Part shown: positions 43,918 through 54,740 of the stretch, one piece after another | How positions within the stretch are numbered: the stretch's first letter is position 1 | Layout of the letters: every line of letters begins with the position of its first letter | DNA from: Patescibacteria group bacterium | Lineage (GTDB): Bacteria; Patescibacteriota; Microgenomatia; UBA1400; PJMF01 | Direction of reading: 5' to 3' | Assembly (NCBI GenBank): GCA_016861205.1 | Contig: BOKX01000001.1 | Location: 8,539 to 72,538 of the forward strand | DNA length: 64,000 nt | Position numbers and translations under genes: made by a program | The notes under the pieces: generated by a model | Told to the model about the DNA's origin: nothing | The model's input: the letters and a program-made list of their open reading frames with translations, nothing else | Database searches by the model: none

Positions 43918-45009
43918 TTACCCCACAATCACGCCCCCGCCTCGGCAGATCAGAGTTTCGCGTGGACCGCCCGCCTGGTAGATAACCGCCGACTGGCCTT
44001 CAGCTACGCCTTGTAGGGGTTGGCTAAACTGGACCTTGGTGCCAGTCAGGGTGGCTGGGATGAGTTGACCGGTGTGACGAATGCGGACCAAAACTGGTTG
44101 CTGCAAGTCTGGCTGACTAATCCAGTGCCAGGCTCTCACCTCGAGGTGGTCGCGGTAGGTTTCAGGTCCGAAGCCCACTACCAGCTGGTTGCTGGCTGGT
44201 TCTTTGCGGATGACGTAAAACGGTGGCAAAAGATGCTTGTTAACCTCTGTCCCATCTGGCTGAGTGACGACCAACTTGGAGTTAACGGTAAAACCGTGGC
44301 GTTGCCCAACGGTGTAAAACCACAGACCTTTGTGCTGGCCAATCACGTTGCCTTGGACGTCGACTACATCGCCAGGGTTTTCGCCGAGTCGGTCTTTTAG
44401 AAACTCATGGACATTGATGTCGCCAATAAAACAGATGCCGACTGAGTCTTTTTTGGCCGCAACACCCAAGCCTCGTTGTTCGGCTTCAGCCCGAACCTCT
44501 GGCTTTGTGAGATGGCCAATCGGAAACAGGGTGTGTTTAAGCTGTTCTCCACTCAGGACATGGAGGAAGTAGGTCTGATCTTTGTGAGTATCGGTGCTGG
44601 TCAGCAACTCGCCAGGAGCGGCTTGGTGGTCAACCTGGGCGTAGTGCCCAGTTGCGACATAGTCAAAACCATGAGCCATTGCCCAGTCGTAGAACAGGCC
44701 AAACTTAATTTCTTTGTTGCACATCACATCGGGATTTGGGGTGAAGCCTGCCTGATATTCGTTGAAAAAATACTCAACCACGCGTTGCCGGTAGGCATCT
44801 TTAAAGTCCAAGACCTGAAATGGGATATCGAGGCTCAAGGCTACTTTCAAAGCGTCTTGCCGATCGGCATCGGTTCGGCAACCTGGGGCGCGCCAGCACT
44901 CGAGATACACGCCAGTCACGTCGTACCCCTGGTCGACGAGCAAATGAGCTGAGAGTGATGAGTCTACCCCACCGGACATACCGAGGGCGACCCGTGGTCG
45001 TGATGACAT
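43918..45009 (-). CDS. mnmA: tRNA-specific 2-thiouridylase MnmA
   Basis: PP-loop SGGVDSS, MnmA blocks (CNKEIKFGLFYDWA; QTYFLHVLS), and the C-terminal beta-barrel. Start at MSSRPRVAL. Confidence 0.9.
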   Translation of the reverse strand: MSSRPRVALGMSGGVDSSLSAHLLVDQGYDVTGVYLECWRAPGCRTDADRQDALKVALSLDIPFQVLDFKDAYRQRVVEYFFNEYQAGFTPNPDVMCNKEIKFGLFYDWAMAHGFDYVATGHYAQVDHQAAPGELLTSTDTHKDQTYFLHVLSGEQLKHTLFPIGHLTKPEVRAEAEQRGLGVAAKKDSVGICFIGDINVHEFLKDRLGENPGDVVDVQGNVIGQHKGLWFYTVGQRHGFTVNSKLVVTQPDGTEVNKHLLPPFYVIRKEPASNQLVVGFGPETYRDHLEVRAWHWISQPDLQQPVLVRIRHTGQLIPATLTGTKVQFSQPLQGVAEGQSAVIYQAGGPRETLICRGGGVIVG

Positions 45010-45038
45010 AGGCGCACAGACGTTATTAGAACCTATAA

Positions 45039-45824
45039 TTATAGCGGATAGGTCAGTGAAATAAAAGGACACGCCTCGGTGGCGAATCGAGCCACTTCCC
45101 AGGTGCCAGTCCAGTTGGTTGGTGTCAGGGCATATAGTGCCCACTGTGGACCGGTGGCCAGCGTGCTTTGAGCGTAAAACACAACGGTGCCGTCCTCGCC
45201 GAGAGGCACTTCGGAACTCAAGGGTGTTTTGCTCCCAAAAGAAGGTTGATAGCCAAATCGAAGTTTGTAGTCCAGATAGCCAAGAGTGTTAACTACGCCG
45301 AAGGCGTTGCGCGACTGTCCGGCTGATAACAGTTGGATGCCCCGCTGGTGCATCTCGCGCAGGAAGAGATAGTCGATCACTGCCCCGAGTGAGGAGTTGG
45401 CAGTGTTCGTCAAATCCAGGCGATCGGTGGCTTTGAAGGCAAAGGTGGCTTTTTCGGTGCCGTTGACGGCAAAAATCCCCGACCCCACCAACTTGCCCTG
45501 CTGATACATGAGGAGGCCCAACACTTTTTGTCCAAGCGCCGTTTTTTTGGCAAACCACTCCTGGCTAGCAATCACGTCGTACTGGTTCTCCAACATTTTT
45601 TGCTGATAGTACTCCAGCCAGCTGCCAAACTGCTCAGCCGAAAGTTCCTCCAGAGTCCAGGTGATTTGTTTGGCGGCCAACAGCTCATCCACATTGGACA
45701 GGAACTTGCGCAAACCCTTGCTCAGGATGTGCGGGGTCACACTTTCGTCAGGAGTGAGACTGGGAAATCGCCAGCGAATTTTCTCTGGTCGGGTCAGATG
45801 GTACGGCTCTAGGTTGACGGTCAT
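45039..45824 (-). CDS. Hypothetical protein, possibly FemAB/CelD-like GNAT-fold (Acetyltransf_6-like)
   Basis: 261 aa. The C-terminal block LGAVIDYLFLREMHQRGIQLLSAGQSRNAFGVVNTLGYLDYKLRFGYQP weakly resembles the FDFGRGDE.YKERFGA signature of the Acetyltransf_6 family. Its start overlaps the stop of the upstream ATP-grasp gene by 4 nt. Confidence 0.3.
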   Translation of the reverse strand: MTVNLEPYHLTRPEKIRWRFPSLTPDESVTPHILSKGLRKFLSNVDELLAAKQITWTLEELSAEQFGSWLEYYQQKMLENQYDVIASQEWFAKKTALGQKVLGLLMYQQGKLVGSGIFAVNGTEKATFAFKATDRLDLTNTANSSLGAVIDYLFLREMHQRGIQLLSAGQSRNAFGVVNTLGYLDYKLRFGYQPSFGSKTPLSSEVPLGEDGTVVFYAQSTLATGPQWALYALTPTNWTGTWEVARFATEACPFISLTYPL

Positions 45825-46855
45825 ACTTTCTCAAGCTCTGGAAACATCTGGTACAACAAAACCTGAGCCACGTTGCGAGCGGGGCCCTTCATGGGGTAGT
45901 GGTGGATGCTGTAGTGGGGGCCAGCGTTGACTTCGATGACGAAGTTTTTGACCGTGCTTTGATCAGCTGTTAGGTCCTCAGTCATGAAGTCGAGACCAGC
46001 GAATGGTAACTCGGGTATGGCTTGGATGGCTTTGAGGGCAATTTCCTTGACTGAAGGGTGTGCCTCGTCAGTTAGGTCAACGCTGTCGCCGCCTTGTGAT
46101 AAGTTGGACACCAGTTTCAGAAACACTTGTCTTCCTGCCTCAAGTACACTGTCAGCTGTCAGGTTCTGTTGTTTAAGTAACTCGAGCGAGTCTTCTTTCA
46201 ACATAACGTGAGGGTAGGGATCGTCGTGTTTGGGGTTGATGTTGCGCAAAGGATCTTGGTTTTTGATCTCGATCAGTTCGGCAATGGTATGCTGGCCATC
46301 CCCCACTACGTTGGCTGGAATCCGAGCCATGATTGCCAGGACTTTGTCAGGTGTTAACGTAATCCGATACTCGTCGCCACTGACTTGTTTTTCGAGCAAA
46401 AAGCCTTGGTCAAGATTGATGGCAGCCTGTCGAACGGTTGGTAAGTGTTTGGCAACATCGTCACGGTTTTGCAGGTTGGTATACACGGCACTGCCGTTAT
46501 TGCCATGGGAAGACTTCAAGACGACTGGATAGCCCAAGGCATCAGCCGCTGCCAAAACTTGGTCATCAGTGGCCTCTTGCGAAAAATGCTGGCCGTCGGC
46601 AATCGTGACACCCGCTTCCTGCAGAAACGTGCGAGTGATGCGCTTGTCCAGACAAGCATAGTACGAGACAAACGTGGTGTTGGCTGAAAACCCACCAAAG
46701 AAAAACCGCTTCTTGCCTTGATAAGTCAGCTCAAATAAGCGACTGCTGTCGATTTGCCGCCAGCTGACGCCGTGTTTTTCGGCCTCTTCGAGCATGACGC
46801 GTTCTTTAGTGCTGATATTTTCTTCATTTCTGAACTGCATGGCACTCATAGTCAC
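45821..46855 (-). CDS. ATP-grasp ligase resembling the N-terminal (Asp-adding) module of cyanophycin synthetase CphA (paralog 2)
   Basis: Blocks YPVVLKSSHGNNGSAVY, PANVVGDGQHTIAELIEIKNQDPLR, ANLSQGG, and the C-terminal VIEVNAGPHYSIHHYPMKGPARNVAQ. Compare CphA PAHVTGDGTSTITELIDKTNQDP / VIVEVNAAPGFRMHVAPSQGLPRNVA. 4-nt overlap with the next gene. Confidence 0.7.
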   Translation of the reverse strand: MTMSAMQFRNEENISTKERVMLEEAEKHGVSWRQIDSSRLFELTYQGKKRFFFGGFSANTTFVSYYACLDKRITRTFLQEAGVTIADGQHFSQEATDDQVLAAADALGYPVVLKSSHGNNGSAVYTNLQNRDDVAKHLPTVRQAAINLDQGFLLEKQVSGDEYRITLTPDKVLAIMARIPANVVGDGQHTIAELIEIKNQDPLRNINPKHDDPYPHVMLKEDSLELLKQQNLTADSVLEAGRQVFLKLVSNLSQGGDSVDLTDEAHPSVKEIALKAIQAIPELPFAGLDFMTEDLTADQSTVKNFVIEVNAGPHYSIHHYPMKGPARNVAQVLLYQMFPELEKV

Positions 46856-47835
46856 TTCACTTTCTGTTCAATCATTTCTAGAATCGCCGAGGCAACATCT
46901 CGGGGCTGACCTTGAATAGGATAGTGGTGCATTCTCAGGCCGGGTGAAGCGTTGACTTCAATGACTCCAGCGCGAGTTTGATTGACAATTGGGGTGGTTA
47001 AGTCCTGACACATGATGTCGATACCGATCACATTCAGGTCGCAGGCTCGAGCGATGGTTTCAAACAAAGTCTTGTTTTCTGGGCAGACCTGGTCGGTTAC
47101 ATCCCAGGCTTCGCCGCCGGTGGACAGATTGGCAGTTTTGCGCAGAGCCACCTCTTGGCCTGGGGGGACAACTGCCTCAAGCTCCAATTTCTGGTCGGCC
47201 AGATTTTGACGAACGGTGTCATCAACTTCAATTAAGGTTAGGTTGTAGGTGTGACCTTTACCGCGCCAGGGGTGTTGGTTTTTGATCTCGATTAGTTCGG
47301 CAATCGTGTGTTCTCCGTCCCCGACCACATGGGCTGGTTTGCGAAATGCCACTGCGACTAGCTGGTAGTCGACACAGACTACCCGATACTCAGTCCCCTG
47401 GAGCATTTCTTCACAGATCGACTCTGGTTGCTGTTGCCCTAGCCAGAGTTCGCGGACCGCCGCCGCGTCGGCTACGCCGACGCTGACGTCTTTCCCGTGG
47501 CGACCACCGACTGGTTTGACCACTACCGGGAACTGAAGTTGAGACAACTGGTCAAAATCCGCTTCCGACTTGATCAACACAAATGGCGCCGTGGGCAACT
47601 GAAAGTGGCTTAGGACGAGCTTGGTGAGTGGTTTGTAGTCAGCGATAGTTTTGCCGACTGAGGACTGCCAACTGGTTCTCGAGCCACGGGTGTACCATTG
47701 GTGGCCGTTTTTTGACATCAGGATTGTTTGGCGATCGCCCAACAACTGACACTCGATACCACGCTTGGCCGCGGTTTCAGCCATGATGCGGGAGCTGGCT
47801 TCCAAGGGTGGGCGGTTGGTGGTGGTTTCAGACAT
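46852..47835 (-). CDS. ATP-grasp ligase resembling the N-terminal module of cyanophycin synthetase CphA (paralog 1)
   Basis: FPVVVKPVGGRHGKDV, PAHVVGDGEHTIAELIEIKNQHPWRGKGH, ANLSTGG, GVIEVNASPGLRMHHYPIQGQPRDVASAILEMI. Shares the identical HTIAELIEIKNQ stretch with its neighbour. 8-nt overlap with the upstream DUF1704 gene. Confidence 0.72.
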   Translation of the reverse strand: MSETTTNRPPLEASSRIMAETAAKRGIECQLLGDRQTILMSKNGHQWYTRGSRTSWQSSVGKTIADYKPLTKLVLSHFQLPTAPFVLIKSEADFDQLSQLQFPVVVKPVGGRHGKDVSVGVADAAAVRELWLGQQQPESICEEMLQGTEYRVVCVDYQLVAVAFRKPAHVVGDGEHTIAELIEIKNQHPWRGKGHTYNLTLIEVDDTVRQNLADQKLELEAVVPPGQEVALRKTANLSTGGEAWDVTDQVCPENKTLFETIARACDLNVIGIDIMCQDLTTPIVNQTRAGVIEVNASPGLRMHHYPIQGQPRDVASAILEMIEQKVK

Positions 47836-48790
47836 GAGGCACTTCCTCTATCACTTGATGAAATTGATTTTTGACACCGATTTCATAGATACCTTGACGA
47901 TACTTGGCTAGGTCATCAAAGAAACTAGGATACAACAACTGCTTAGTTTCGGCTGTGGGGGCATATTTGTCAATCTCCTCGAGACTAATCCGACCCAAGT
48001 AGAGGTGATAGGGATTGTGAGACTCATCTTGGAGCCAGTGCCAGATCTGTAAACAACCCTCGAGGTAGCAAATATCCTTAGTTGGACCACCGGGCTGGGA
48101 TGTGTCTGTCAAACCGCGTTTTGCCCGCAGTGTATGAAGCCAAGACATGCGTTCACTGATGCCCAAAGCGCGAAGCTGGGCATAGGTCTCAGTAAATGAG
48201 TACCGCTGCGCCAGCCAGGTGGTGAGGTATGTTCGAAAGGTTTTGCGCATGTAACGGCCGCTAAACAGGTTGGTATGAAGGCCGGCCAAGCCTTCTTCAG
48301 TACGGCGGAAATGGTCGTCAGCCGCTGTGTAATCCGGCCAGTTTTGGAGTTGATGATTATGAATGCGCAGGTAATGCGTTTCGAGTTCATGGCGGTACAC
48401 ACCTTGGAACTCGAGAGGTGAGTAGATCAGGGGCAGCCGAAACTCGATCTTATCAGGTGAAACTCGACACTGTGTGACCATTTGGTCAGTAAAAACGACT
48501 TTGAGCGGCTCTTTCAGCCGATAGGCGTGATTAAACTGGTCGATCGCTTCTCGAATACTGGCTTGGGTGACAATTTCAGTCTTTGGTTTCCAGGGGTCAA
48601 CTGTATTGATGTGAATGATCATTTCTCGAGCAAACTCGGCCAACCGGTCCTTAGGGAGTCCCCAGGCATGCAGTTGATCGGTTGCGATGTTCTGTCGGTA
48701 GGTAAACTGGGGATTATAGGTTTGGTCGGCCAAAAAATGGTTGTACTCTTCAACCAAGTTAGTGGGTGTCAGGTGCGAAATAATCTGCAT
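47828..48790 (-). CDS. DUF1704 'QEGLA-motif' family protein, putative metallocarboxypeptidase (MATCAP-like)
   Basis: HExxxH-type motif HELETHYLR followed by the family-typical EEGLA (RRTEEGLAGLHTNLF). 320 aa, a length typical for the family. 1-nt overlap with the upstream ATP-grasp gene. Confidence 0.6.
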   Translation of the reverse strand: MQIISHLTPTNLVEEYNHFLADQTYNPQFTYRQNIATDQLHAWGLPKDRLAEFAREMIIHINTVDPWKPKTEIVTQASIREAIDQFNHAYRLKEPLKVVFTDQMVTQCRVSPDKIEFRLPLIYSPLEFQGVYRHELETHYLRIHNHQLQNWPDYTAADDHFRRTEEGLAGLHTNLFSGRYMRKTFRTYLTTWLAQRYSFTETYAQLRALGISERMSWLHTLRAKRGLTDTSQPGGPTKDICYLEGCLQIWHWLQDESHNPYHLYLGRISLEEIDKYAPTAETKQLLYPSFFDDLAKYRQGIYEIGVKNQFHQVIEEVPHV

Positions 48791-50073
48791 TAACTCACGT
48801 CTCCAACCAAGAAACCGCTCAGGTCGTTACGCCCGATTTCCAGCTGATACTTGCTGCGGTTTAATGACTTCGAGACTACCATACTGGTACTCTGTTTGCG
48901 ACCTTTGAGCCGGAAGGACACTTGGACCACCGGTGCGCGGCCCTCCTCTTTTTCTGGTTGGTACCATAGAAAGTCATCAAGATCGATCAAGCCTAGTTTT
49001 TTGGCCAAGTCGCTAGAAATACAGCTGCGAAAACGACCGGTGTTAACGAGGGCCATGGTTTCTTCTTTGATTTGTTGATCGCCGTAAACGAGTACTTCTT
49101 CAAACGGCTTGATGATGGTCAAGCCGTCCTCGGCTTTGATTTTGTCGGAAAACTTTTCAGCAAACAAAGCCTGTCCAATCCGGACTCCATGGTCTGGATT
49201 TAAGACATTCAAATCTTGGACCCGCTCCAGCCGACGGCGCAAGCCTGCCCGGTTGGCAATTTGGATCGATAACCCTGGATTGGCGTTCAACTCAACTACC
49301 ATGGGGCCCTGCTCTTCGTGAATGAACAGGTCGATGGCGCAGTACATCAGGCCAGCCGCGTCAGCGGTCTTAACGGCGATAGTGAGGACGTCTTTCCAGT
49401 GCGGAATGCGAAAGCCACTCAATTTTTTCTTGGTGCCAGGCAGATATTGAATGGGAGTCCCTTTACCAATAATCGCGTGAGTTGTTACGCCCGTGGCCAT
49501 ATCAATGCCGACACCGATCGCACCTTGATCGAGGTTTGCTCGGCCACCAGACTCTTCAGTGGGAATGCGGATGTACGACATGATCGGGACGTGATTGAAA
49601 ACAATGACCCGCACGTCGGGCGTGCCCTTGGTGGTGTACTTGTAAAACGTGCCGTGAATTGGAACGCGCTCCTCAACAATGACATGGTGGTTAACGCCAT
49701 ACGTGCTGTACTGACCTTCTAAAATATCAAAGCAGTGAAACTTGATCTCATCCAAACTCCACACCTTGCCTAAAGTGTCCACCCAGTGTTGCTTGTCATT
49801 TTGCTGGGTTTTGAAGATCAACACTCCTTTACCGGCGTTGCCGTTGGTAGGTTTGATGACGAAGTTTTTCTCTAGGTGTTCCCACTCGAATTGGTTCACG
49901 TCTTCGTAGGTCGTCAAAATGGCAAAAATTTTGGCGGTCGGAATATGCTTGTTTTCGAGCAAGACTTTGGTGGCGTACTTGGAGGCGCAAAACTGACGAG
50001 CTGTGGCCGAGTTCAGCTTGCCGTAGATGAGCTGGCGGGCGTTCATGCCCAGAATGTCGCGTGCTTTAGGCAT
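48790..50073 (-). CDS. RimK-type 'alpha-L-glutamate ligase-like' ATP-grasp enzyme fused to a C-terminal retropepsin-like (DUF785/Zn_protease-type) domain
   Basis: N-terminal ~310 aa: GMNARQLIY...KYATKVLLENKHIPTAKIFAI, FVIKPTNGNAGKGVLIF, DVRVIVFNHVPIMSYIRIPTEESGGRANLDQGAIGVGIDMATG, MVVELNANPGLSIQIANRAGL. These match my recollection of the TIGR02291/RimK-related family. C-terminal ~110 aa: ALVNTGRFRSCISSDLAKKLGL...VVQVSFRL...LEIGRNDLSGFLVGD, resembling the AKIDTGA.TS..RPVI..LLGR..L block pattern of DUF785. Confidence 0.65.
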   Translation of the reverse strand: MPKARDILGMNARQLIYGKLNSATARQFCASKYATKVLLENKHIPTAKIFAILTTYEDVNQFEWEHLEKNFVIKPTNGNAGKGVLIFKTQQNDKQHWVDTLGKVWSLDEIKFHCFDILEGQYSTYGVNHHVIVEERVPIHGTFYKYTTKGTPDVRVIVFNHVPIMSYIRIPTEESGGRANLDQGAIGVGIDMATGVTTHAIIGKGTPIQYLPGTKKKLSGFRIPHWKDVLTIAVKTADAAGLMYCAIDLFIHEEQGPMVVELNANPGLSIQIANRAGLRRRLERVQDLNVLNPDHGVRIGQALFAEKFSDKIKAEDGLTIIKPFEEVLVYGDQQIKEETMALVNTGRFRSCISSDLAKKLGLIDLDDFLWYQPEKEEGRAPVVQVSFRLKGRKQSTSMVVSKSLNRSKYQLEIGRNDLSGFLVGDVS

Positions 50074-50084
50074 AGCCGTACTCT

Positions 50085-51068
50085 TTACTCTTCAATAATT
50101 GACTTGAAGCGCAGCCATTCTAGTAAGCGTAAACCGGTGTACCGACCGACCACAATGTTGATTGCTGCCACGCCCAGCAAGGTCAGTTCTGGTTGCAAAA
50201 TGACGCCTTTTTGGACGAACTCGGAACCAACGACAATAGAACATAGCACCGCCGTGATCAACGTTTCAAAGGTCAACTGGAGGGTTGCGGACTGGCTACT
50301 GGTGAGCTGCGACTCCATAAAGTTTTCTGTTAATAGCATGATGATCAGCAACGGGAAGATGCTAATACCAGCGATGAAGTTACCGGGTAGGTAGACTGAA
50401 GAAATCAGCGCCAGTAACACCACAATTGAGACTCCCCAGAGCAACAAGGCAGTCCGAGGTAAGTAGTGCAGTTTCAGGCGTTTGAGAATTTGGCGAGCGG
50501 TCAAAGCAGCCAATAAGGTGATCATGAACAGCACAATGCCGTTGATAATCCCCGTCGAGACAAACGCAACCGATAGCACCGCTGGAATGTAAATGCCGAA
50601 GCCTTTCATGCCAATGATGTGGCGGGTGAACGAAATGAAGGCGGCAATCACTGGGAACAACAGGACTAACACCACGATGTTGGCTGGCAACCCGCGGTTG
50701 ATAGCTTCTCGGATAGGATGTTGTAAGAAGTTATGCCAACTCAAGGGGCCGATGGGGTTTTCATCCAGCCAAGCAGCTAGCTTGCTTTTCTGAGGCGCAG
50801 TGGACTGAGTAATGTCCTTATCCTGTTTCTCTTGAATCCTTTGTTCCAGTTGAGCCGAAATTGACGCTAACTGTGCCGATAGGCTGGCCTCGCCGCTTTG
50901 GGTAGCCACTTCCGCGCTCAAAGTCGCGTCGGTAGCTGGTGAAGGACTGGCTGAGGCAGCACGAAGTTGGGACACAGTTTGGGCGGTGACGAGTGTGGGG
51001 TGGGTGGCGCTAGCTACCCAGGCGAACAGGCTCAATGCCAGCAGTCCCCAAATAAAGTGGCGAATCAT
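50085..51068 (-). CDS. Secreted-N-terminus multi-TM membrane protein (possible 7TM partner of RimK-like ATP-grasp systems)
   Basis: Signal peptide (MIRHFIWGLLALSLFAWVASA), ~100 aa Ser/Ala/Gln-rich extracytoplasmic segment, then 6-7 TM helices. Stops 11 bp upstream of the ATP-grasp fusion gene. Confidence 0.45.
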   Translation of the reverse strand: MIRHFIWGLLALSLFAWVASATHPTLVTAQTVSQLRAASASPSPATDATLSAEVATQSGEASLSAQLASISAQLEQRIQEKQDKDITQSTAPQKSKLAAWLDENPIGPLSWHNFLQHPIREAINRGLPANIVVLVLLFPVIAAFISFTRHIIGMKGFGIYIPAVLSVAFVSTGIINGIVLFMITLLAALTARQILKRLKLHYLPRTALLLWGVSIVVLLALISSVYLPGNFIAGISIFPLLIIMLLTENFMESQLTSSQSATLQLTFETLITAVLCSIVVGSEFVQKGVILQPELTLLGVAAINIVVGRYTGLRLLEWLRFKSIIEE

Positions 51069-51113: not shown

Positions 51114-51482
51114 TTATAAAATAAACCCAACAATTGACTGTAAGAAGCTGATTAAAAATGAGGCAAACAGCAGCGAGAAAAACTGGTTGAGTTGCACGCC
51201 GCCCACGGTCATTTCAGTGATTCTAAAGCCTGGTACTAAGTACATCGCCAACCATAGAATGAGGACATTTAGGACGAGTGAAAAGAAACCCAACGTAATG
51301 ATGTTGATGGGTAAAAACAAGAGGCTCAAGATTGGTTTGACGAACTTTTGCAGGACCGTTAAAACAAGACCAGCCAAAACTAACGCCGTCCAGTTGGCAT
51401 AATCGATTGTCGGTAGCAACCAACTGAGAATCGCAATGGTGACGGTTGTTGAAATGATCGGTTTGAGTAAGTTAAGTGTCAT
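51114..51482 (-). CDS. Phage holin family IV-like (DUF360) small membrane protein
   Basis: 122 aa with four TM helices and the characteristic ..LVPGFRI.. turn (LAMYLVPGFRITEMTVGG). No phage genes nearby. Confidence 0.5.
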   Translation of the reverse strand: MTLNLLKPIISTTVTIAILSWLLPTIDYANWTALVLAGLVLTVLQKFVKPILSLLFLPINIITLGFFSLVLNVLILWLAMYLVPGFRITEMTVGGVQLNQFFSLLFASFLISFLQSIVGFIL

Positions 51483-51574: not shown

Positions 51575-52984
51575 TTAGGTGAACATCTGATTCAACCGGC
51601 GTCGCGACTGTTGTCGTTTAGAGAAACGGTGTGCTTCGTCCCGAAGCTGTTGAATCAACTTTAGGCCAGGATGTGTCTCGGGTAGTCGCAAAACGTGGTA
51701 ACGTGGCACGCTGCCCAGTTGGTAATCCTTTAAAGAACGCTTAGGACTCGGTTGGGAAATCAACTCGGGACCAGGGATGATTAATCGATCAGGGTCCTTG
51801 GCAATACTGATGACAGGAGTTGTCCACTGCCAGACCTTCAGAGCAGCACGTAACTGGCCTTTGCCACCGTCGATCACAATCAGGTCGGGTTGACCCCATT
51901 CGGGGTGATTTTGGCGGCGTTGCAGGGCTTCCTGGAGCATAGCGAAGTCATTTGGTGTGTCCAGAGTGCGAATGTTAAAGACTTTGTACTCTTGGTTGGC
52001 TGCCTGACCGTCAATGAATGTAACCATCGAGACAGCTGCGTAGGTGCCACTGATGTTGCTGACGTCATAAGCTTCGATGCGGTGCAGTGGGAAGGTGGCT
52101 GGCAAACTCAGGTAGGTTGAGAGCATTTTTCGCAAGTACACGACACCCTCCTCGGCTTGTGATGCCCGGAGGTGCGGTAGTGTTAAATCAGGTCGTAGTG
52201 AGTATGTTCGTTGGGTGACGGCGGTGATGACTTCTACTCGGTCTCGTAGGGTGGCAGCTAGTTCGTACTGTTCTTGTTCTGACGCGAGCTTCATTTGTTG
52301 CGAAATCATCCGGACCACATCTTTTTTTTGACCTTTGAGGAACATGACCAGTTGTGCAATGGTTTGCTGGTACTCTTCTGGAGTAACGCGACCGATACAG
52401 GCACCTGGACACTGACTGATGTGGTAGAAGAAACACGGTCGGGAGTTGGGTTTGGCTGGATCGACACCTTCGTTGCACCAGGGGAAAATCTTGCGAGCAA
52501 TTCCTAAGACTTCCCTCACTTTGTAGGCACTGGGGAAAGGTCCCAGGAGTGTCCCCTTCATCGGTCGAGTTTCGGTTTCTTTCTTACGTCGAGTTAACAC
52601 TCTGGGGTAGGGTTCGGCCGTGATCTGGATGTAGAGCGGGGTTTTATCGTCTTTGAGCAAGATGTTGGTCGGTGGTTGGTGTGTGCGAATGAGCTCAGCC
52701 TCGACAAGCAAAGCTTCAAGCTCACTATCGAGCACCTGCCACTTAAGCTGCTGGGCAGTCTCGACCATGCCGCGAATGCGGCTGCTGAGCTGGTTCACTT
52801 GGCGATAGGTGTTAACGCGATTTTTGAGATTTTTGGCTTTACCGACGTAAAGAACTTGGTTAGCGCCGTCGAGAAACCAGTATACCCCCGGTTGCGAGGG
52901 CAACTGCCGCGCCGCCGACTCCCAGGCCAATGAGGAAGCCTCGGTTGGTGAAGTAACTGATGAAGGCTGGGGCGAGTTGGGCAT
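51575..52984 (-). CDS. uvrC: Excinuclease ABC subunit C (short form lacking the C-terminal HhH domain; start uncertain)
   Basis: GIY-YIG (QPGVYWFLD..LYVGKAKNLKNR), Cys-rich region, UVR domain (EQYELAATLRDR), and the endonuclease domain (IEAYDVSNISG, IDGGKGQ). 469 aa against ~600 aa typical. The annotated start overlaps the upstream ORF by ~125 bp. Confidence 0.8.
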   Translation of the reverse strand: MPNSPQPSSVTSPTEASSLAWESAARQLPSQPGVYWFLDGANQVLYVGKAKNLKNRVNTYRQVNQLSSRIRGMVETAQQLKWQVLDSELEALLVEAELIRTHQPPTNILLKDDKTPLYIQITAEPYPRVLTRRKKETETRPMKGTLLGPFPSAYKVREVLGIARKIFPWCNEGVDPAKPNSRPCFFYHISQCPGACIGRVTPEEYQQTIAQLVMFLKGQKKDVVRMISQQMKLASEQEQYELAATLRDRVEVITAVTQRTYSLRPDLTLPHLRASQAEEGVVYLRKMLSTYLSLPATFPLHRIEAYDVSNISGTYAAVSMVTFIDGQAANQEYKVFNIRTLDTPNDFAMLQEALQRRQNHPEWGQPDLIVIDGGKGQLRAALKVWQWTTPVISIAKDPDRLIIPGPELISQPSPKRSLKDYQLGSVPRYHVLRLPETHPGLKLIQQLRDEAHRFSKRQQSRRRLNQMFT

Positions 52985-54740
52985 GCGTGTCGGTGATTAA
53001 TTTGGCTTGGTAATTTTGTAGTTGCATTGTAACCTGAACAGCTGAGGTCGTGGGCCAGAGTTCATCAGGGTTGATGGCTACCAACGGCAGCCGTTGGGTT
53101 TGATATGGTAACACTACCGGCAAGGTTTTTTCTGCTACGGTCACTTTTTGTCCGCCAAGTACCGCGGTGACGCTGGCTCTGGCTCCATACCATGCAGAAC
53201 CAGTTTGGTTAACAACTTCAAGCTCGAGCCAACCAGGAATAGATATGCCCCAGATTTTTTTGGGGACAATTCTGACTTCTAGATCTGGCTCTGTTTCAGG
53301 AAATGTGGTGCCAAAATCAACACTGACATCTTTGGTGTTTTGGTCAGTTAACTTGTATGAACCTGCTGGATACGGCAAAGTACTGGACTGACCGTTGATG
53401 GCAAACACAATGTGGTTGAGATCAAACTGGTCGAAGTAGTTCACTCCCCCGGTGGTGTTGCCCCAGGTGGGATCGATTGGTCGCCACTGGTTTGTTTGGT
53501 AATCATAGTACTCAGGCCAAGCGTGCAAAATATCCTCTACTAAACTGAGTGGGCGCAGCGCGCTATTTTCGGTATGGGCATAGCCTGTTAATCGACGTGT
53601 GGGAACTTGATTTGCTCGAGCGAGAGCAATAAACGTGTCAGTAAACTCTTGGCAGTTGACGTTGGCTGGGCTGGCCAAGGTAGTAACTGCCCCTAGGCGA
53701 GTCGGTGTTCCTTGGGTGGGGTCAAAACCATAGCTTAAGGTGTTAACGACGTAGTCATACATGGCTCGAGGGGTGTGGTGCTCGCTAGCGACTTGTTGGA
53801 CGGCAGGCTGATCACTCTCCCAGTAGGTTTGTGCTTGCAAGAGGCTCGAGCTTGGTTCGGCTACTGGAATGGTGAGATCTGGCTCCAGCGTGAGTTTAGC
53901 TTGGGCAGTGGCGTAGACGATTGTTTCAGAGGCAGCCGGAAGTTGGTACGTTGCAATCCAGTTGCCATCTGGGTCTGCTTCGATTTTTTGCGGCAAAGGG
54001 TCGAGTTGTGAGTAGTGCAGTTTTTGGTAAGGCGTATCTGGGGGCAAGGCAATTTGCATCAAGCCCGGACCGTTGGTAGTGTTTTCCAAGTTGTAACGCA
54101 GCGTCAGGTTAAAAACTTGTTCTGAGCCAAATAAAGCTGCGACACCGGTACTGCCCACCTGGGAAAAATGGGTGATGATCTGGTTGTCTTGATTTTCCAC
54201 CAAAGTAGGATCGGGGGTGACTCGAACAGGCTGGCCGTATTGACTGGGAGTTCTGAGGGTGACTGAGTAGCGGTCGTAAGTTTGTTCAGTACTGAGGGCA
54301 GGTACATATAACTCAAGCACTTTGCCACTAACTACACTGGCATCCTCTTGGTCATAGATAATTTTGATGGTTCGAGTTTTGCCCTCGCCGACCACTTTAT
54401 CGGGAAACGTCAGGCCAACGCTGGTCAGATGGTCGGTTTTGACCACGTTGGGCTGAATGACTTGGTCGTCGCTGGTGACGCGGACATTTTTAATGTCAGT
54501 CCCAGAGGTAATCTTGAGCGCGTATTGTCGGACGTACAGCGTCGGAGTTTTGTTTGTGATGTGAATTTGGTGTTCAACAGTCGTGTTTTTAATGCCGGTC
54601 ACGGTGTACGTACTGTCGAGAGTGAAGCTGAAGTTGGAGTCGGCTTGGGCTGGTTGGAGTGGTGGGATGATGGCCAGGGTAACTAGGAAGAGTATCCAAG
54701 TCACCACAGTTTTGAATAGAAATTGAAGCGGCTTTCTCAC
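52860..54740 (-). CDS. Secreted transglutaminase-like (papain-fold) protein with C-terminal TM anchor
   Basis: Signal peptide. Transglutaminase-core Cys block NCQEFTDTFIALARANQVPTRRLTGYAH followed by HAWPEYYD (His/Asp candidates). C-terminal GLGVGGAAVALATGGILVSRRR anchor. Confidence 0.6.
   Translation of the reverse strand: MRKPLQFLFKTVVTWILFLVTLAIIPPLQPAQADSNFSFTLDSTYTVTGIKNTTVEHQIHITNKTPTLYVRQYALKITSGTDIKNVRVTSDDQVIQPNVVKTDHLTSVGLTFPDKVVGEGKTRTIKIIYDQEDASVVSGKVLELYVPALSTEQTYDRYSVTLRTPSQYGQPVRVTPDPTLVENQDNQIITHFSQVGSTGVAALFGSEQVFNLTLRYNLENTTNGPGLMQIALPPDTPYQKLHYSQLDPLPQKIEADPDGNWIATYQLPAASETIVYATAQAKLTLEPDLTIPVAEPSSSLLQAQTYWESDQPAVQQVASEHHTPRAMYDYVVNTLSYGFDPTQGTPTRLGAVTTLASPANVNCQEFTDTFIALARANQVPTRRLTGYAHTENSALRPLSLVEDILHAWPEYYDYQTNQWRPIDPTWGNTTGGVNYFDQFDLNHIVFAINGQSSTLPYPAGSYKLTDQNTKDVSVDFGTTFPETEPDLEVRIVPKKIWGISIPGWLELEVVNQTGSAWYGARASVTAVLGGQKVTVAEKTLPVVLPYQTQRLPLVAINPDELWPTTSAVQVTMQLQNYQAKLITDTHAQLAPAFISYFTNRGFLIGLGVGGAAVALATGGILVSRRR

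What the first reader, a model, noticed from the sequence alone, without database searches (positions are those of the whole stretch)
48790..50073. RimK-related ATP-grasp fused in one polypeptide to a retropepsin-like (DUF785-type) peptidase domain
The N-terminal ~310 aa carry the ordered blocks I associate with the 'alpha-L-glutamate ligase-like' TIGR02291 family: GMN.RQL.Y, FVIKPTNGNAGKGVLIF, RVIVFNHVPIMSYIRIPTEESGGRANLDQGAIGVGID, ELNANPGLSIQIANRAGL. The C-terminal ~110 aa carry a TGR..S.ISS...K.GL block and a downstream VVQVSF...EIGRNDLSGFLVGD block, the pattern of DUF785 'ATP-dependent Zn protease' retropepsin-like domains. In the literature these two domains are known as separate, operon-linked partners (RimK-associated). 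Here a ligase and a peptidase are on the same chain, suggesting coupled synthesis and processing.
Basis: partly seen in the sequence, partly recalled or inferred. Interest (0 to 1): 0.62.

Follow-up and report, generated by a model that had tools for sequence, protein, structure and literature searches.

The report
Peptide ligase fused to dead retropepsin domain

Summary
Residues 1-290 are an intact ATP-grasp ligase: PF14397 at E 9e-59, related to TIGR02291/RloC but below its cut-off, with a fold closest to ArgX/LysX/RimK. Pfam does not recognise residues 318-427. They are nevertheless a divergent RimB/RloA/DUF785 (PF05618) retropepsin-like domain. The AF2 model matches only retropepsin folds, and a profile of the domain recovers proteins that do score for PF05618 and match the solved RloA structures. 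The proteolytic reading fails. The family's AKIDTGA active site reads ALVNTGR here (N344). Among 120 orthologues that position is N in 106, D in 5, H in 5 and S in 4, while the neighbouring Thr-Gly is invariant. The equivalents of RloA K46, R114 and R137, which hold polyglutamate, are L342, A380 and S403. RloA D48N is inactive by experiment. The domain is as conserved as the ligase, so it is probably a non-catalytic dimerising or regulatory module. The gene lies in a conserved rlo-like operon (7TM, ligase, MATCAP-like carboxypeptidase with intact HExxxH and EEG, two further ligases). Ligase-retropepsin fusions are already known. This is a new variant of a known kind, of moderate interest.

The parts
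48790..50073 (-). Whole gene: 427-aa ATP-grasp ligase with a C-terminal retropepsin-like domain (the end coordinate range includes the stop codon)
   Evidence: ORF list. All 120 listed homologues are full length (411-432 aa) at 62-100% identity. The full-length AF2 model has pLDDT 87.7.
49204..50073 (-). ATP-grasp ligase domain, residues 1-290 (RloC/RimK-related, apparently active)
   Evidence: PF14397 at E 9.1e-59. TIGR02291 scores 229 bits, below its cut-off of 314. K74, E134, R155, D248 and E261 are invariant and N263 nearly invariant in the 62-sequence alignment A2; I read these as ATP- and Mg-binding positions. The best structural matches are ArgX, RimK, LysX and CphA1.
49123..49203 (-). 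Conserved linker helix and flexible tether, residues 291-317 (GVRIGQALFAE.F.DKIKAEDG)
   Evidence: Nearly invariant within the clade. Residues 309-315 have pLDDT below 50 in the full-length model, which has pTM 0.71. The helix is also matched in the DTGA-type fused relatives, where profile positions 1-20 align.
48793..49122 (-). Retropepsin-like (RimB/RloA/DUF785-type) domain, residues 318-427, predicted to be catalytically dead
   Evidence: AF2 model. Foldseek matches to Ddi1 RVP, RloA, RloA2, 2pma and retroviral proteases at E 8.5e-5 to 6e-4. Profile search plus Pfam scan of the hits. No direct PF05618 hit.
49036..49044 (-). N344-T345-G346, which takes the place of the catalytic D-T-G
   Evidence: HMM alignment: D in 128 of 139 distant domain copies. 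Among 120 orthologues the first position is N 106, D 5, H 5, S 4; T is 120/120 and G 119/120. Codon coordinates.
50085..51068 (-). Upstream gene: 327-aa membrane protein matching the 7TM module of RloB, without the inactive transglutaminase domain
   Evidence: PF14402 at E 2.3e-24 over residues 133-324. The RloB model NF052267 matches only its positions 315-507 of 508. The gene ends 11 bases before the ligase start. Present in 79 of 80 related loci.
47828..48790 (-). Downstream gene: 320-aa MATCAP/QEGLA (DUF1704) metallocarboxypeptidase homologue with intact HExxxH (48374-48391) and EEG (48290-48298) motifs
   Evidence: PF08014 at E 2.1e-23 and TIGR02421. Motif positions. The role of these motifs in TMCP1/2 is described in PMC10499314. 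Its start overlaps the ligase stop as TAATG. Directly downstream in 66 of 72 related loci.
46852..47835 (-). Operon gene: 327-aa ATP-grasp ligase resembling the cyanophycin-synthetase G domain
   Evidence: TIGR02068 at E 1.2e-93, matching model positions 156-470 only. Overlaps the MATCAP gene by 8 bases.
45821..46855 (-). Operon gene: second ATP-grasp ligase of the cyanophycin-synthetase G-domain type, 344 aa
   Evidence: TIGR02068 at E 5e-75. Overlaps its neighbour by 4 bases.
45039..45824 (-). Operon gene: 261-aa protein of unknown family
   Evidence: No Pfam hit. One weak FemAB-type NCBIfam hit at E 0.026. A 256-aa gene sits at the same position in L003. Overlaps its neighbour by 4 bases.
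51114..51482 (-). Small membrane protein (PF04020/DUF360) upstream of the 7TM gene, in conserved synteny
   Evidence: PF04020 at E 6.9e-22. Present in 66 of 80 related loci.

Best explanation
The protein is an RloC/RimK-type ATP-grasp amino-acid ligase. It probably adds glutamate or another amino acid to the C-terminus of a peptide or protein. It carries a retropepsin-like domain of the RimB/RloA (PF05618) lineage on a flexible tether at its C-terminus.

In this Patescibacteria clade that domain is a pseudoprotease. It keeps the fold and the Thr-Gly loop that I take to be the 'fireman's grip' of retropepsin dimers. It has lost the catalytic Asp (N344) and the K/R/R residues that hold polyglutamate in RloA (L342, A380, S403).

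I infer that it now does only the non-proteolytic job known for RimB. That job would be to dimerise and to dock on or activate the ligase, or to hold the growing tail. Trimming of the product would fall to the intact MATCAP-type metallocarboxypeptidase encoded immediately downstream. The 7TM RloB-like protein encoded immediately upstream would couple the system to the membrane.

Shown here: the fold, the homology, the residue losses, conservation equal to that of the ligase, and the operon. Inferred: the ligase substrate, dimerisation, the activating role, and the division of labour with MATCAP.
For: - Architecture and homology.
- Loss of the active site: AKIDTGA in the family against ALVNTGR here. 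Position 344 is N 106, D 5, H 5, S 4 among 120 orthologues, with T345 at 120/120 and G346 at 119/120.
- In a column-by-column comparison, the residues conserved in Asp-bearing relatives that I read as structural are kept (A, T, G, I, L, A, L, G, L and G-R-x-D-L-x-G-F). K47, D49, A52, S56, D58, R85 and R108 are changed.
- R85 and R108 map to RloA R114 and R137 by their spacing from the catalytic Asp in the 9g58 alignment.
- Experiments in the literature: RloA D48N and D48A are inactive, and R114A and R137A have the strongest effects (PMC11957051). RimB D31E is inactive. RimB also binds RimK and raises its poly-Glu synthesis about fourfold, so it has a second, non-proteolytic role (PMC11957791).
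- The domain is not decaying: mean conservation is 0.73, against 0.77 for the ligase.
- MATCAP neighbour: HELETH and EEG are intact. TMCP1/2 of that family are carboxypeptidases and deglutamylases.
- Operon: conserved in 80 species-level loci.
- All five operons examined that have a DTGA-type fusion as a separate gene lack MATCAP immediately downstream of it.
Against: - No biochemistry was done on this protein.
- Five of 120 orthologues carry Asp at the catalytic position, so some residual or alternative chemistry cannot be excluded.
- P0189 combines an intact DTGA domain with MATCAP in one chain, so MATCAP and an active retropepsin are not mutually exclusive.
- The link between Asp loss and MATCAP rests on one clade, so it may reflect a single evolutionary event.
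- Dimerisation and docking on the ligase were not modelled. The pTM of 0.71 and the disordered tether give no fixed orientation between the domains.
- The amino acid ligated and the acceptor are unknown.
Confidence: 0.72

Rival explanations
1. One reading: the protein is truly bifunctional. The ATP-grasp domain builds a poly-amino-acid tail and the fused retropepsin domain cleaves it, as in RimBK or RimK plus RimB.
For: - The fold and homology to RimB/RloA proteases are real.
- The published RimBK hybrid is proteolytically active (PMC11957791).
- DTGA-type fusions of the same architecture exist.
- The domain is strongly conserved.
Against: - The residue at the catalytic position is N344, and across orthologues it varies as N/D/H/S while the flanking T-G is invariant. 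That pattern does not fit a catalytic residue.
- RloA D48N is inactive.
- The K46, R114 and R137 equivalents are L342, A380 and S403.
- PF05618 does not score the domain at all.
Confidence: 0.07
2. The dead retropepsin domain is mainly a 'reader' or clamp. It uses the former substrate cleft to hold the acceptor or the growing tail, so that the ligase works processively or selects its target. Dimerisation or activation of the ligase would be secondary.
For: - Inactive members of peptidase folds often persist as peptide-binding modules. This has been argued for inactive transglutaminase-like domains (PMC3495828).
- New clade-specific conserved residues line the former active-site loop (R347, R349) and the segment I take to be the flap (D-D-x-L-W, residues 366-370).
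- The flexible tether would let the domain reach the ligase active site.
Against: - The residues that bind polyglutamate in RloA are all lost, so any ligand differs from the family's known one.
- No candidate ligand has been identified.
- My data cannot separate this reading from the dimerisation/activation reading.
Confidence: 0.18
3. The C-terminal region is not a retropepsin homologue at all, and the motif resemblance is chance.
For: - No direct PF05618 hit, and only E 0.1-0.2 hits to other aspartyl-protease models.
- The profile search against PDB sequences found nothing relevant.
- TM-scores to solved retropepsins are only moderate, 0.45-0.58.
Against: - The profile recovers PF05618-positive proteins at E 1e-8 to 1e-5 against a library of 1.84 billion sequences.
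- The motifs align in register.
- The top 42 Foldseek matches are all retropepsin folds, each with probability 1.00.
Confidence: 0.02

Closest known systems
rloABC operon of Pseudomonas aeruginosa (RloA secreted retropepsin, RloB inactive-transglutaminase-7TM protein, RloC ATP-grasp; Lormand et al. 2025, PMC11957051)
   Same: - The ATP-grasp domain belongs to the same Pfam family (PF14397) and relates to the same NCBIfam lineage (TIGR02291).
- A PF14402 7TM gene lies directly beside the ligase gene.
- A retropepsin-like module of the PF05618 lineage belongs to the same system.
   Different: - The retropepsin module is fused to the C-terminus of the ligase. It should therefore be cytoplasmic, whereas RloA is a separate, secreted enzyme with a signal peptide.
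- It lacks the catalytic Asp and the K46, R114 and R137 equivalents.
- The 7TM protein lacks the inactive transglutaminase domain.
- The operon adds a MATCAP-like peptidase and two ligases of the cyanophycin-synthetase type.
- The host is a Patescibacterium rather than a proteobacterium.
- The TIGR02291 score is below the family cut-off.
RimB-RimK pair and the RimBK hybrid of Desulfotalea psychrophila (Little et al. 2025, PMC11957791)
   Same: - A cytoplasmic retropepsin-like domain works with, or is fused to, a RimK-clade ATP-grasp glutamate ligase.
- RimB has a non-proteolytic, ligase-stimulating role that could survive loss of catalysis.
   Different: - In RimBK the protease domain sits at the N-terminus of a true RimK (PF08443) and is active. 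Here it sits at the C-terminus of a PF14397 ligase and lacks the catalytic Asp.
- The window holds no rimA and gives no sign of an RpsF-tail context. Neither was tested.
ATPgrasp_ST + RimB-like fusions with an intact DTGA motif, found in metagenomes (P0135, P0138, P0157, P0158, P0163, P0225; triple fusion with MATCAP in P0189)
   Same: - Same domain order and the same conserved linker helix.
- The 7TM gene lies directly upstream.
- 33-50% identity to the window protein over the full length.
   Different: - They keep AK(I/V)DTGA and the RP and DR arginines, and most score for PF05618.
- Apart from P0189, their operons have no MATCAP gene immediately downstream of the fusion gene.
Eukaryotic tubulin-tail enzymes: TTL/TTLL ATP-grasp ligases with MATCAP/TMCP carboxypeptidases (PMC10499314)
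   Same: An ATP-grasp amino-acid ligase is paired with a MATCAP-family HExxxH/EEG metallocarboxypeptidase. In eukaryotes these add and remove C-terminal Tyr/Glu tails.
   Different: This is a bacterial operon with a membrane 7TM partner and an unknown substrate. The ligase is of the RimK/RloC type, not the TTL type.

Membership tests
PF14397 ATPgrasp_ST (Pfam) | HMM score above the gathering cut-off over the full domain | tested here: met
   199.4 bits against a cut-off of 31.4. Residues 15-286 cover profile positions 5-277 of 278.
TIGR02291 alpha-L-glutamate ligase-like protein (the RloC type) | HMM score above NCBIfam's curated cut-off | tested here: not met
   229.2 bits against a cut-off of 314.2, although the alignment spans profile positions 9-295 of 317. 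The protein is a relative, not an equivalog.
TIGR02291 / RloC system | Encoded next to a PF14402 7TM gene (RloB-type partner) | tested here: met
   The PF14402 gene ends 11 bases upstream. It is present in 79 of 80 related loci.
TIGR02291 / RloC system | The partner RloB carries an inactive transglutaminase domain N-terminal to the 7TM module | tested here: not met
   Only residues 133-326 match, to RloB model positions 315-507 of 508. Residues 1-130 gave no domain hit and look like a signal peptide followed by low-complexity sequence.
ATP-grasp superfamily (active ligase) | Conserved ATP- and Mg-binding residues (Lys in the phosphate-binding strand, a hinge Glu, and the Asp/Glu/Asn Mg ligands in the E-x-N motif) | tested here: met
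   K74, E134, R155, D248 and E261 are invariant and N263 nearly invariant across 62 sequences. The assignment of these positions to ATP and Mg binding is from my own knowledge. The fold matches ArgX, RimK and LysX.
PF05618 Zn_protease / RimB-like / DUF785 | Direct HMM score above the gathering cut-off | tested here: not met
   No PF05618 hit for the isolated C-terminus, even at E<=10.
PF05618 Zn_protease / RimB-like / DUF785 | Homology shown through intermediates and by fold | tested here: met
   The A1 profile hits PF05618-positive proteins at E 1e-8 to 1e-5. P0188 then matches 9g59, 9g58 and 2pma. The model matches 9g58, 9g59 and 2pma in Foldseek.
Clan AA retropepsin-like aspartic peptidases | Catalytic Asp in the D-T/S-G motif | tested here: not met
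   N344-T-G. Among 120 orthologues the position is N 106, D 5, H 5, S 4. It is D in 128 of 139 distant family domain copies.
RimB/RloA polyglutamate endopeptidases | Basic residues that coordinate polyglutamate (RloA K46, R114, R137) | tested here: not met
   The equivalents are L342, A380 and S403. These columns are K 73%, R 86% and R 82% in Asp-bearing relatives. The mapping comes from the 9g58 alignment, and the residue roles from PMC11957051.
Clan AA retropepsin-like aspartic peptidases | Homodimer with the active site at the interface | not testable with these tools
   Only single-chain prediction is available. The invariant T345-G346 fits a retained interface loop but does not prove it.
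RimBK hybrid (PMC11957791) | RimB domain at the N-terminus of a PF08443 RimK, proteolytically active | tested here: not met
   The domain order is reversed, the ligase is PF14397, and the catalytic Asp is absent. P0267 is an example of the true RimBK layout.
PF08014 MATCAP / TIGR02421 QEGLA (the neighbouring gene) | Pfam score above the cut-off, plus HExxxH and EEG metal-binding motifs | tested here: met
   83.3 bits against a cut-off of 27. HELETH at residues 134-139 and EEG at 165-167. Motif roles from PMC10499314. TIGR02421 scores 70.9 bits, below its cut-off of 338.

The most novel reading that the evidence does not exclude
In this Patescibacteria clade the retropepsin domain has been converted from a polyglutamate endopeptidase into a dedicated non-catalytic subunit. 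That subunit could be an obligatory dimerising activator or a tail-binding clamp of the ligase. The conversion happened when a MATCAP-type carboxypeptidase and extra ligases joined the operon. The clade would then be a natural separation-of-function mutant, showing that the ligase-stimulating role of RimB/RloA-type domains can be selected for on its own. It would also be a bacterial system in which an ATP-grasp ligase and a MATCAP peptidase write and erase a C-terminal tail.
Probability: 0.35. Interest if true: 0.6.

Novelty: new variant of a known kind. Interest (0 to 1): 0.42.

Why it matters
The rlo and rim systems affect osmotic tolerance, biofilm formation, antibiotic sensitivity and ribosome modification in Pseudomonas. 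What RloB and RloC do is still unknown. So is the reason the retropepsin partner both cleaves the ligase's product and stimulates the ligase.

This clade is found in at least 88 species-level genomes. In it the retropepsin domain is tethered to the ligase, strongly conserved, and stripped of its catalytic and polyglutamate-binding residues. That isolates the non-proteolytic role and gives a direct construct for testing it.

The operon also places a MATCAP-family carboxypeptidase with intact motifs next to ATP-grasp ligases in a minimal-genome bacterium. This is a bacterial counterpart of the eukaryotic enzymes that write and erase tubulin tails.

For annotation, these proteins are now named only 'alpha-L-glutamate ligase-like' or 'hypothetical'. 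Their C-terminal domain goes unrecognised.

Tried and rejected
- Scanning the isolated C-terminus against Pfam at E<=10 gave no PF05618 hit. It gave only sub-threshold gag-asp_proteas, Asp_protease_2 and RecG_wedge matches.
- phmmer of the whole protein and hmmsearch of the C-terminal profile against PDB sequences found no retropepsin. The one profile hit was an engrailed homeodomain at E 0.37, which I dismissed as chance.
- The search for homologous proteins with the 114-aa C-terminal fragment returned nothing, because too few shared words were found.
- Iyer et al. 2009 (PMC3268129) first analysed these ATP-grasp operons, as far as I recall. It is not held in the library, so I cite nothing from it.
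- Scanning all ORFs of the 64-kb window with both domain profiles found no second, active retropepsin gene.
- I considered an Asn-dependent self-cleavage (asparagine lyase) role and rejected it, because the position varies as N/D/H/S across orthologues.
- I considered a frameshift or assembly fusion artefact and rejected it, because all 120 listed homologues and 80 species-level loci keep the architecture.
- I did not attempt dN/dS, because synonymous sites should be saturated at about 70% amino-acid identity. I used protein-level conservation instead.
Full report
**1. The observation**

The window holds a 427-aa ORF on the minus strand at 48790-50073, with an ATG start.

Its start lies 11 bases after the stop of the upstream gene. 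Its stop overlaps the start of the downstream gene as TAATG. The next three genes overlap by 8, 4 and 4 bases. The gene therefore sits inside a tightly packed, probably co-translated operon.

The best 120 database homologues are all 411-432 aa long and 62-100% identical over the full length. Those that carry names are labelled Patescibacteria, Woesebacteria or Pacebacteria. The two-part architecture is therefore real and conserved, not an assembly artefact.

**2. The N-terminal domain**

- Residues 15-286 match PF14397 ATPgrasp_ST at E 9.1e-59. The RimK model PF08443 also matches, at E 1.6e-12.
- TIGR02291, the 'alpha-L-glutamate ligase-like protein' family that includes Pseudomonas RloC, aligns over profile positions 9-295 of 317. 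It scores 229 bits, below its curated cut-off of 314. The protein is a relative of that family, not an equivalog.
- In a 62-sequence alignment that includes distant fused relatives, K74, E134, R155, D248 and E261 are invariant and N263 is nearly so. I read these as the ATP-grasp nucleotide- and Mg-binding positions.
- The full-length AF2 model has pLDDT 87.7. It is most similar to ArgX, RimK, LysX and the cyanophycin synthetase G domain. All of these ligate amino acids to peptide or protein carboxylates.

The ligase half looks functional.

**3. The C-terminal domain: what it is**

Pfam and NCBIfam annotate nothing after residue 290. Scanned alone at E<=10, the region gives no PF05618 (Zn_protease / DUF785 / RimB-like) hit. 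It gives only sub-threshold aspartyl-protease matches around the TGR motif, at E 0.1-0.2. Three independent lines rescue the homology.

(a) Fold. An AF2 model built from a 45-sequence alignment of residues 296-427 (A1) has a core pLDDT above 90. Its top 42 Foldseek matches in the PDB are all retropepsin folds, with the first 26 below E 1e-3. They include:
- Ddi1 RVP domains (E 8.5e-5)
- Pseudomonas RloA 9g58 (E 1.2e-4) and RloA2 9g59 (E 1.7e-4)
- Legionella DUF785 2pma (E 6e-4)
- RSV, EIAV and HTLV proteases

TM-scores are moderate, 0.45-0.58.

(b) Profile search. An exhaustive HMMER search of 1.84 billion cluster representatives with the A1 profile found only 194 proteins at E<=1e-3. Ten of them were scanned against Pfam. 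All ten hit PF05618, nine above the gathering score. They show a range of architectures:
- stand-alone proteins of about 110-130 aa
- retropepsin + 7TM_transglut fusions (P0217, P0264)
- an N-terminal retropepsin + RimK fusion (P0267)
- an ATPgrasp_ST + retropepsin + MATCAP triple fusion (P0189)

(c) Link to solved structures. One of these intermediates, P0188, matches RloA2, RloA and 2pma by sequence at E 7.8e-6, 9.3e-5 and 0.0099.

The C-terminus is therefore a divergent member of the RimB/RloA/DUF785 retropepsin-like lineage.

**4. The C-terminal domain: what it is not**

I aligned 139 domain copies from the profile hits to the A1 model. The family motif A-K-(I/V)-D-T-G-A is in register with A-L-V-N-T-G-R in the window protein. 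The catalytic position is Asp in 128 of the 139 copies.

Among the 120 close orthologues that position is N in 106, D in 5, H in 5 and S in 4. The following Thr is invariant (120/120) and the Gly nearly so (119/120).

A column-by-column comparison of the window clade with the Asp-bearing relatives shows two classes of position.
- Kept: the positions I read as structural, namely A46, T50, G51, I57, L61, A62, L65-G66-L67 and G-R-x-D-L-x-G-F.
- Changed: K47 to L, D49 to N, A52 to R, S56 to A, D58 to S, R85 to V/A, and R108 to K/S.

From the alignment of P0188 to the RloA chain 9g58, R85 lies 66 residues after the catalytic Asp and R108 lies 89 after it. Those spacings match RloA R114 and R137 relative to D48. 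K47 corresponds to K46.

Lormand et al. report that K46, R114 and R137 coordinate polyglutamate in their model of the RloA active site. They report that R114A and R137A give the strongest loss of activity and fail to complement. They use D48A and D48N as catalytically dead controls (PMC11957051). Little et al. show that even RimB D31E is inactive (PMC11957791).

In the window protein the equivalents are L342, N344, A380 and S403. A catalytic position that drifts among N, D, H and S next to an invariant Thr-Gly indicates selection for the loop structure rather than for catalysis. In retropepsins this loop forms the 'fireman's grip' at the dimer interface; that statement rests on my own knowledge of the family.

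The domain is still as conserved as the ligase. Mean column conservation is 0.73, against 0.77 for the ligase. It has also gained clade-specific invariant residues: R347, R349 and D-D-x-L-W at 366-370. It is functional, but most likely not as a protease.

**5. Context**

The operon on the minus strand runs as follows:

| Window coordinates | Product |
|---|---|
| 51114-51482 | PF04020 small membrane protein |
| 50085-51068 | PF14402 7TM protein; matches only the C-terminal 7TM half of RloB, with no inactive transglutaminase domain |
| 48790-50073 | the ligase-retropepsin gene |
| 47828-48790 | MATCAP/QEGLA (PF08014) homologue |
| 46852-47835 | ATP-grasp ligase of the cyanophycin-synthetase G-domain type |
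| 45821-46855 | second ligase of the same type |
| 45039-45824 | 261-aa protein with no family |

mnmA follows the operon.

The MATCAP homologue keeps HELETH (HExxxH) and EEG. These are the metal-binding motifs of the eukaryotic TMCP1/2 carboxypeptidases, which remove C-terminal Tyr/Glu and also shorten polyglutamate chains (PMC10499314).

I examined 80 loci from GTDB species representatives. The 7TM gene is present in 79 and MATCAP in 75. MATCAP lies directly downstream in 66 of the 72 loci that have enough flank. Two loci inspected in detail show the same gene order. The 64-kb window contains no second retropepsin-like gene.

**6. Relatives with an intact protease**

Fusions of the same architecture that keep DTGA exist in the public data. 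In five of them (P0163, P0135, P0158, P0225, P0138) the 7TM gene lies directly upstream. The gene directly downstream is not MATCAP but one of:
- a penicillin-binding protein
- a RimK-type ligase (in two of the five)
- a DUF3541 protein
- mnmA

The P0138 locus reads 7TM, fusion gene, mnmA. That is the window's flanks without the cassette of MATCAP and extra ligases.

P0189 is the exception. It combines DTGA and MATCAP in one 800-aa chain, in an operon with further ligases and a second MATCAP.

This pattern suggests an active fused protease as the ancestral state. The Asp would then have been lost in a clade whose operon had gained a carboxypeptidase. It rests on few loci and probably on one evolutionary event, so it is an inference and not a demonstrated correlation.

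**7. How it most likely works**

Shown:
- an intact RimK/RloC-type ligase
- a flexible tether (residues 309-315 have pLDDT below 50, and pTM is 0.71)
- a conserved retropepsin-fold domain without its catalytic and polyglutamate-binding residues
- translational coupling to a 7TM protein and to a MATCAP-type peptidase with intact motifs

Inferred:
- The ligase adds amino acids, glutamate by analogy, to a peptide or protein C-terminus.
- The dead retropepsin domain retains the second role known for RimB. RimB binds RimK and raises its poly-Glu synthesis about fourfold (PMC11957791). Here the domain would dimerise and dock on the ligase, or alternatively hold the acceptor or tail.
- Trimming is done by the MATCAP homologue.
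- The 7TM protein links the system to the envelope, as RloB is proposed to do.

I put about 0.72 on the pseudoprotease helper reading as submitted, with the precise helper role unresolved. The alternative that the domain is mainly a tail-binding clamp gets about 0.18.

**8. Comparison with what is known, and novelty**

The closest systems are the rloABC operon and the RimB/RimK pair, including the published RimBK hybrid.

The statement that the two domains are known only as separate partners is out of date. RimBK is characterised, and PF14397 + PF05618 fusions are detectable in public data.

Four features differ from those systems:
- the domain order, combined with an RloC-type ligase
- the systematic loss of the catalytic and substrate-binding residues across a Patescibacteria clade of at least 88 species-level genomes
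- the absence of the inactive transglutaminase domain on the 7TM partner
- the MATCAP-plus-ligases cassette

Current names for these proteins are 'alpha-L-glutamate ligase-like protein', 'sugar-transfer associated ATP-grasp domain-containing protein' or 'hypothetical protein'. None reflects the C-terminal domain.

I rate this a new variant of a known kind, of moderate interest. It is a useful natural separation-of-function case for the rim and rlo field, and a bacterial pairing of an ATP-grasp ligase with a MATCAP peptidase. It is not a new kind of system.

Noticed in passing
window 52860-54740 (-), 51575-52984 (-), 51114-51482 (-): A 626-aa membrane-anchored protein with a PF01841 transglutaminase core, uvrC and a PF04020 small membrane protein lie upstream of the 7TM gene. 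The transglutaminase Cys/His/Asp residues look present by eye. This order is kept in about 60 of 80 related species loci. In Pseudomonas, RloB carries an inactive transglutaminase domain on the same chain as the 7TM module. The separate protein here may or may not belong to the system.
   Followed up: partly
window 45039-45824 (-): The last gene of the operon encodes a 261-aa protein with no Pfam hit. It has one weak FemAB-type NCBIfam match at E 0.026. A 256-aa gene occupies the same position in L003, and a third ATP-grasp gene replaces it in L001.
   Followed up: partly
window 46852-47835 (-) and 45821-46855 (-): Two stand-alone ligases match only the ATP-grasp G domain of cyanophycin synthetase (model positions about 150-475 of 862). 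They have no Mur-ligase-like domain. They may extend or branch the product made by the RloC-like ligase.
   Followed up: no
L004 3474-5876 (protein P0189, GenBank EKD49309.1): This 800-aa triple fusion (ATPgrasp_ST + DTGA retropepsin + MATCAP) is named 'ketopantoate hydroxymethyltransferase' in GenBank, which looks like a misannotation. Its operon holds three more ATP-grasp genes, a second MATCAP, and a 7TM protein with PKD domains.
   Followed up: partly
proteins P0217 and P0264: Here retropepsin-like domains (one or two copies, with DTGA intact) are fused to the N-terminus of the PF14402 7TM module, in the place where RloB has its inactive transglutaminase domain. P0217 is named 'RimK/LysX family protein' although Pfam found no ATP-grasp domain in it.
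   Followed up: partly
L006-L085 record titles: Many MAG records that carry this Patescibacteria-type locus are titled 'uncultured Pseudomonadales bacterium'. One is titled Vitreimonas, one Limisphaerales and one Methylococcaceae. These are probably placeholder or wrong taxonomic labels in the source records.
   Followed up: no
L089 2553-3548 and L087 8350-9222: In DTGA-type relatives the gene after the fusion gene varies. It is a DUF3541 protein followed by MurL in L089, and a RimK/TTL-like ligase flanked by T4SS-pilin-like genes in L087. The accessory genes of this system appear to be highly modular.
   Followed up: no
window 43918-45144 (-): The mechanically listed mnmA ORF starts at a GTG that overlaps the previous gene by about 100 bases. 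The true start is probably the internal Met before MSSRPRVALGMSGGVDSS.
   Followed up: no
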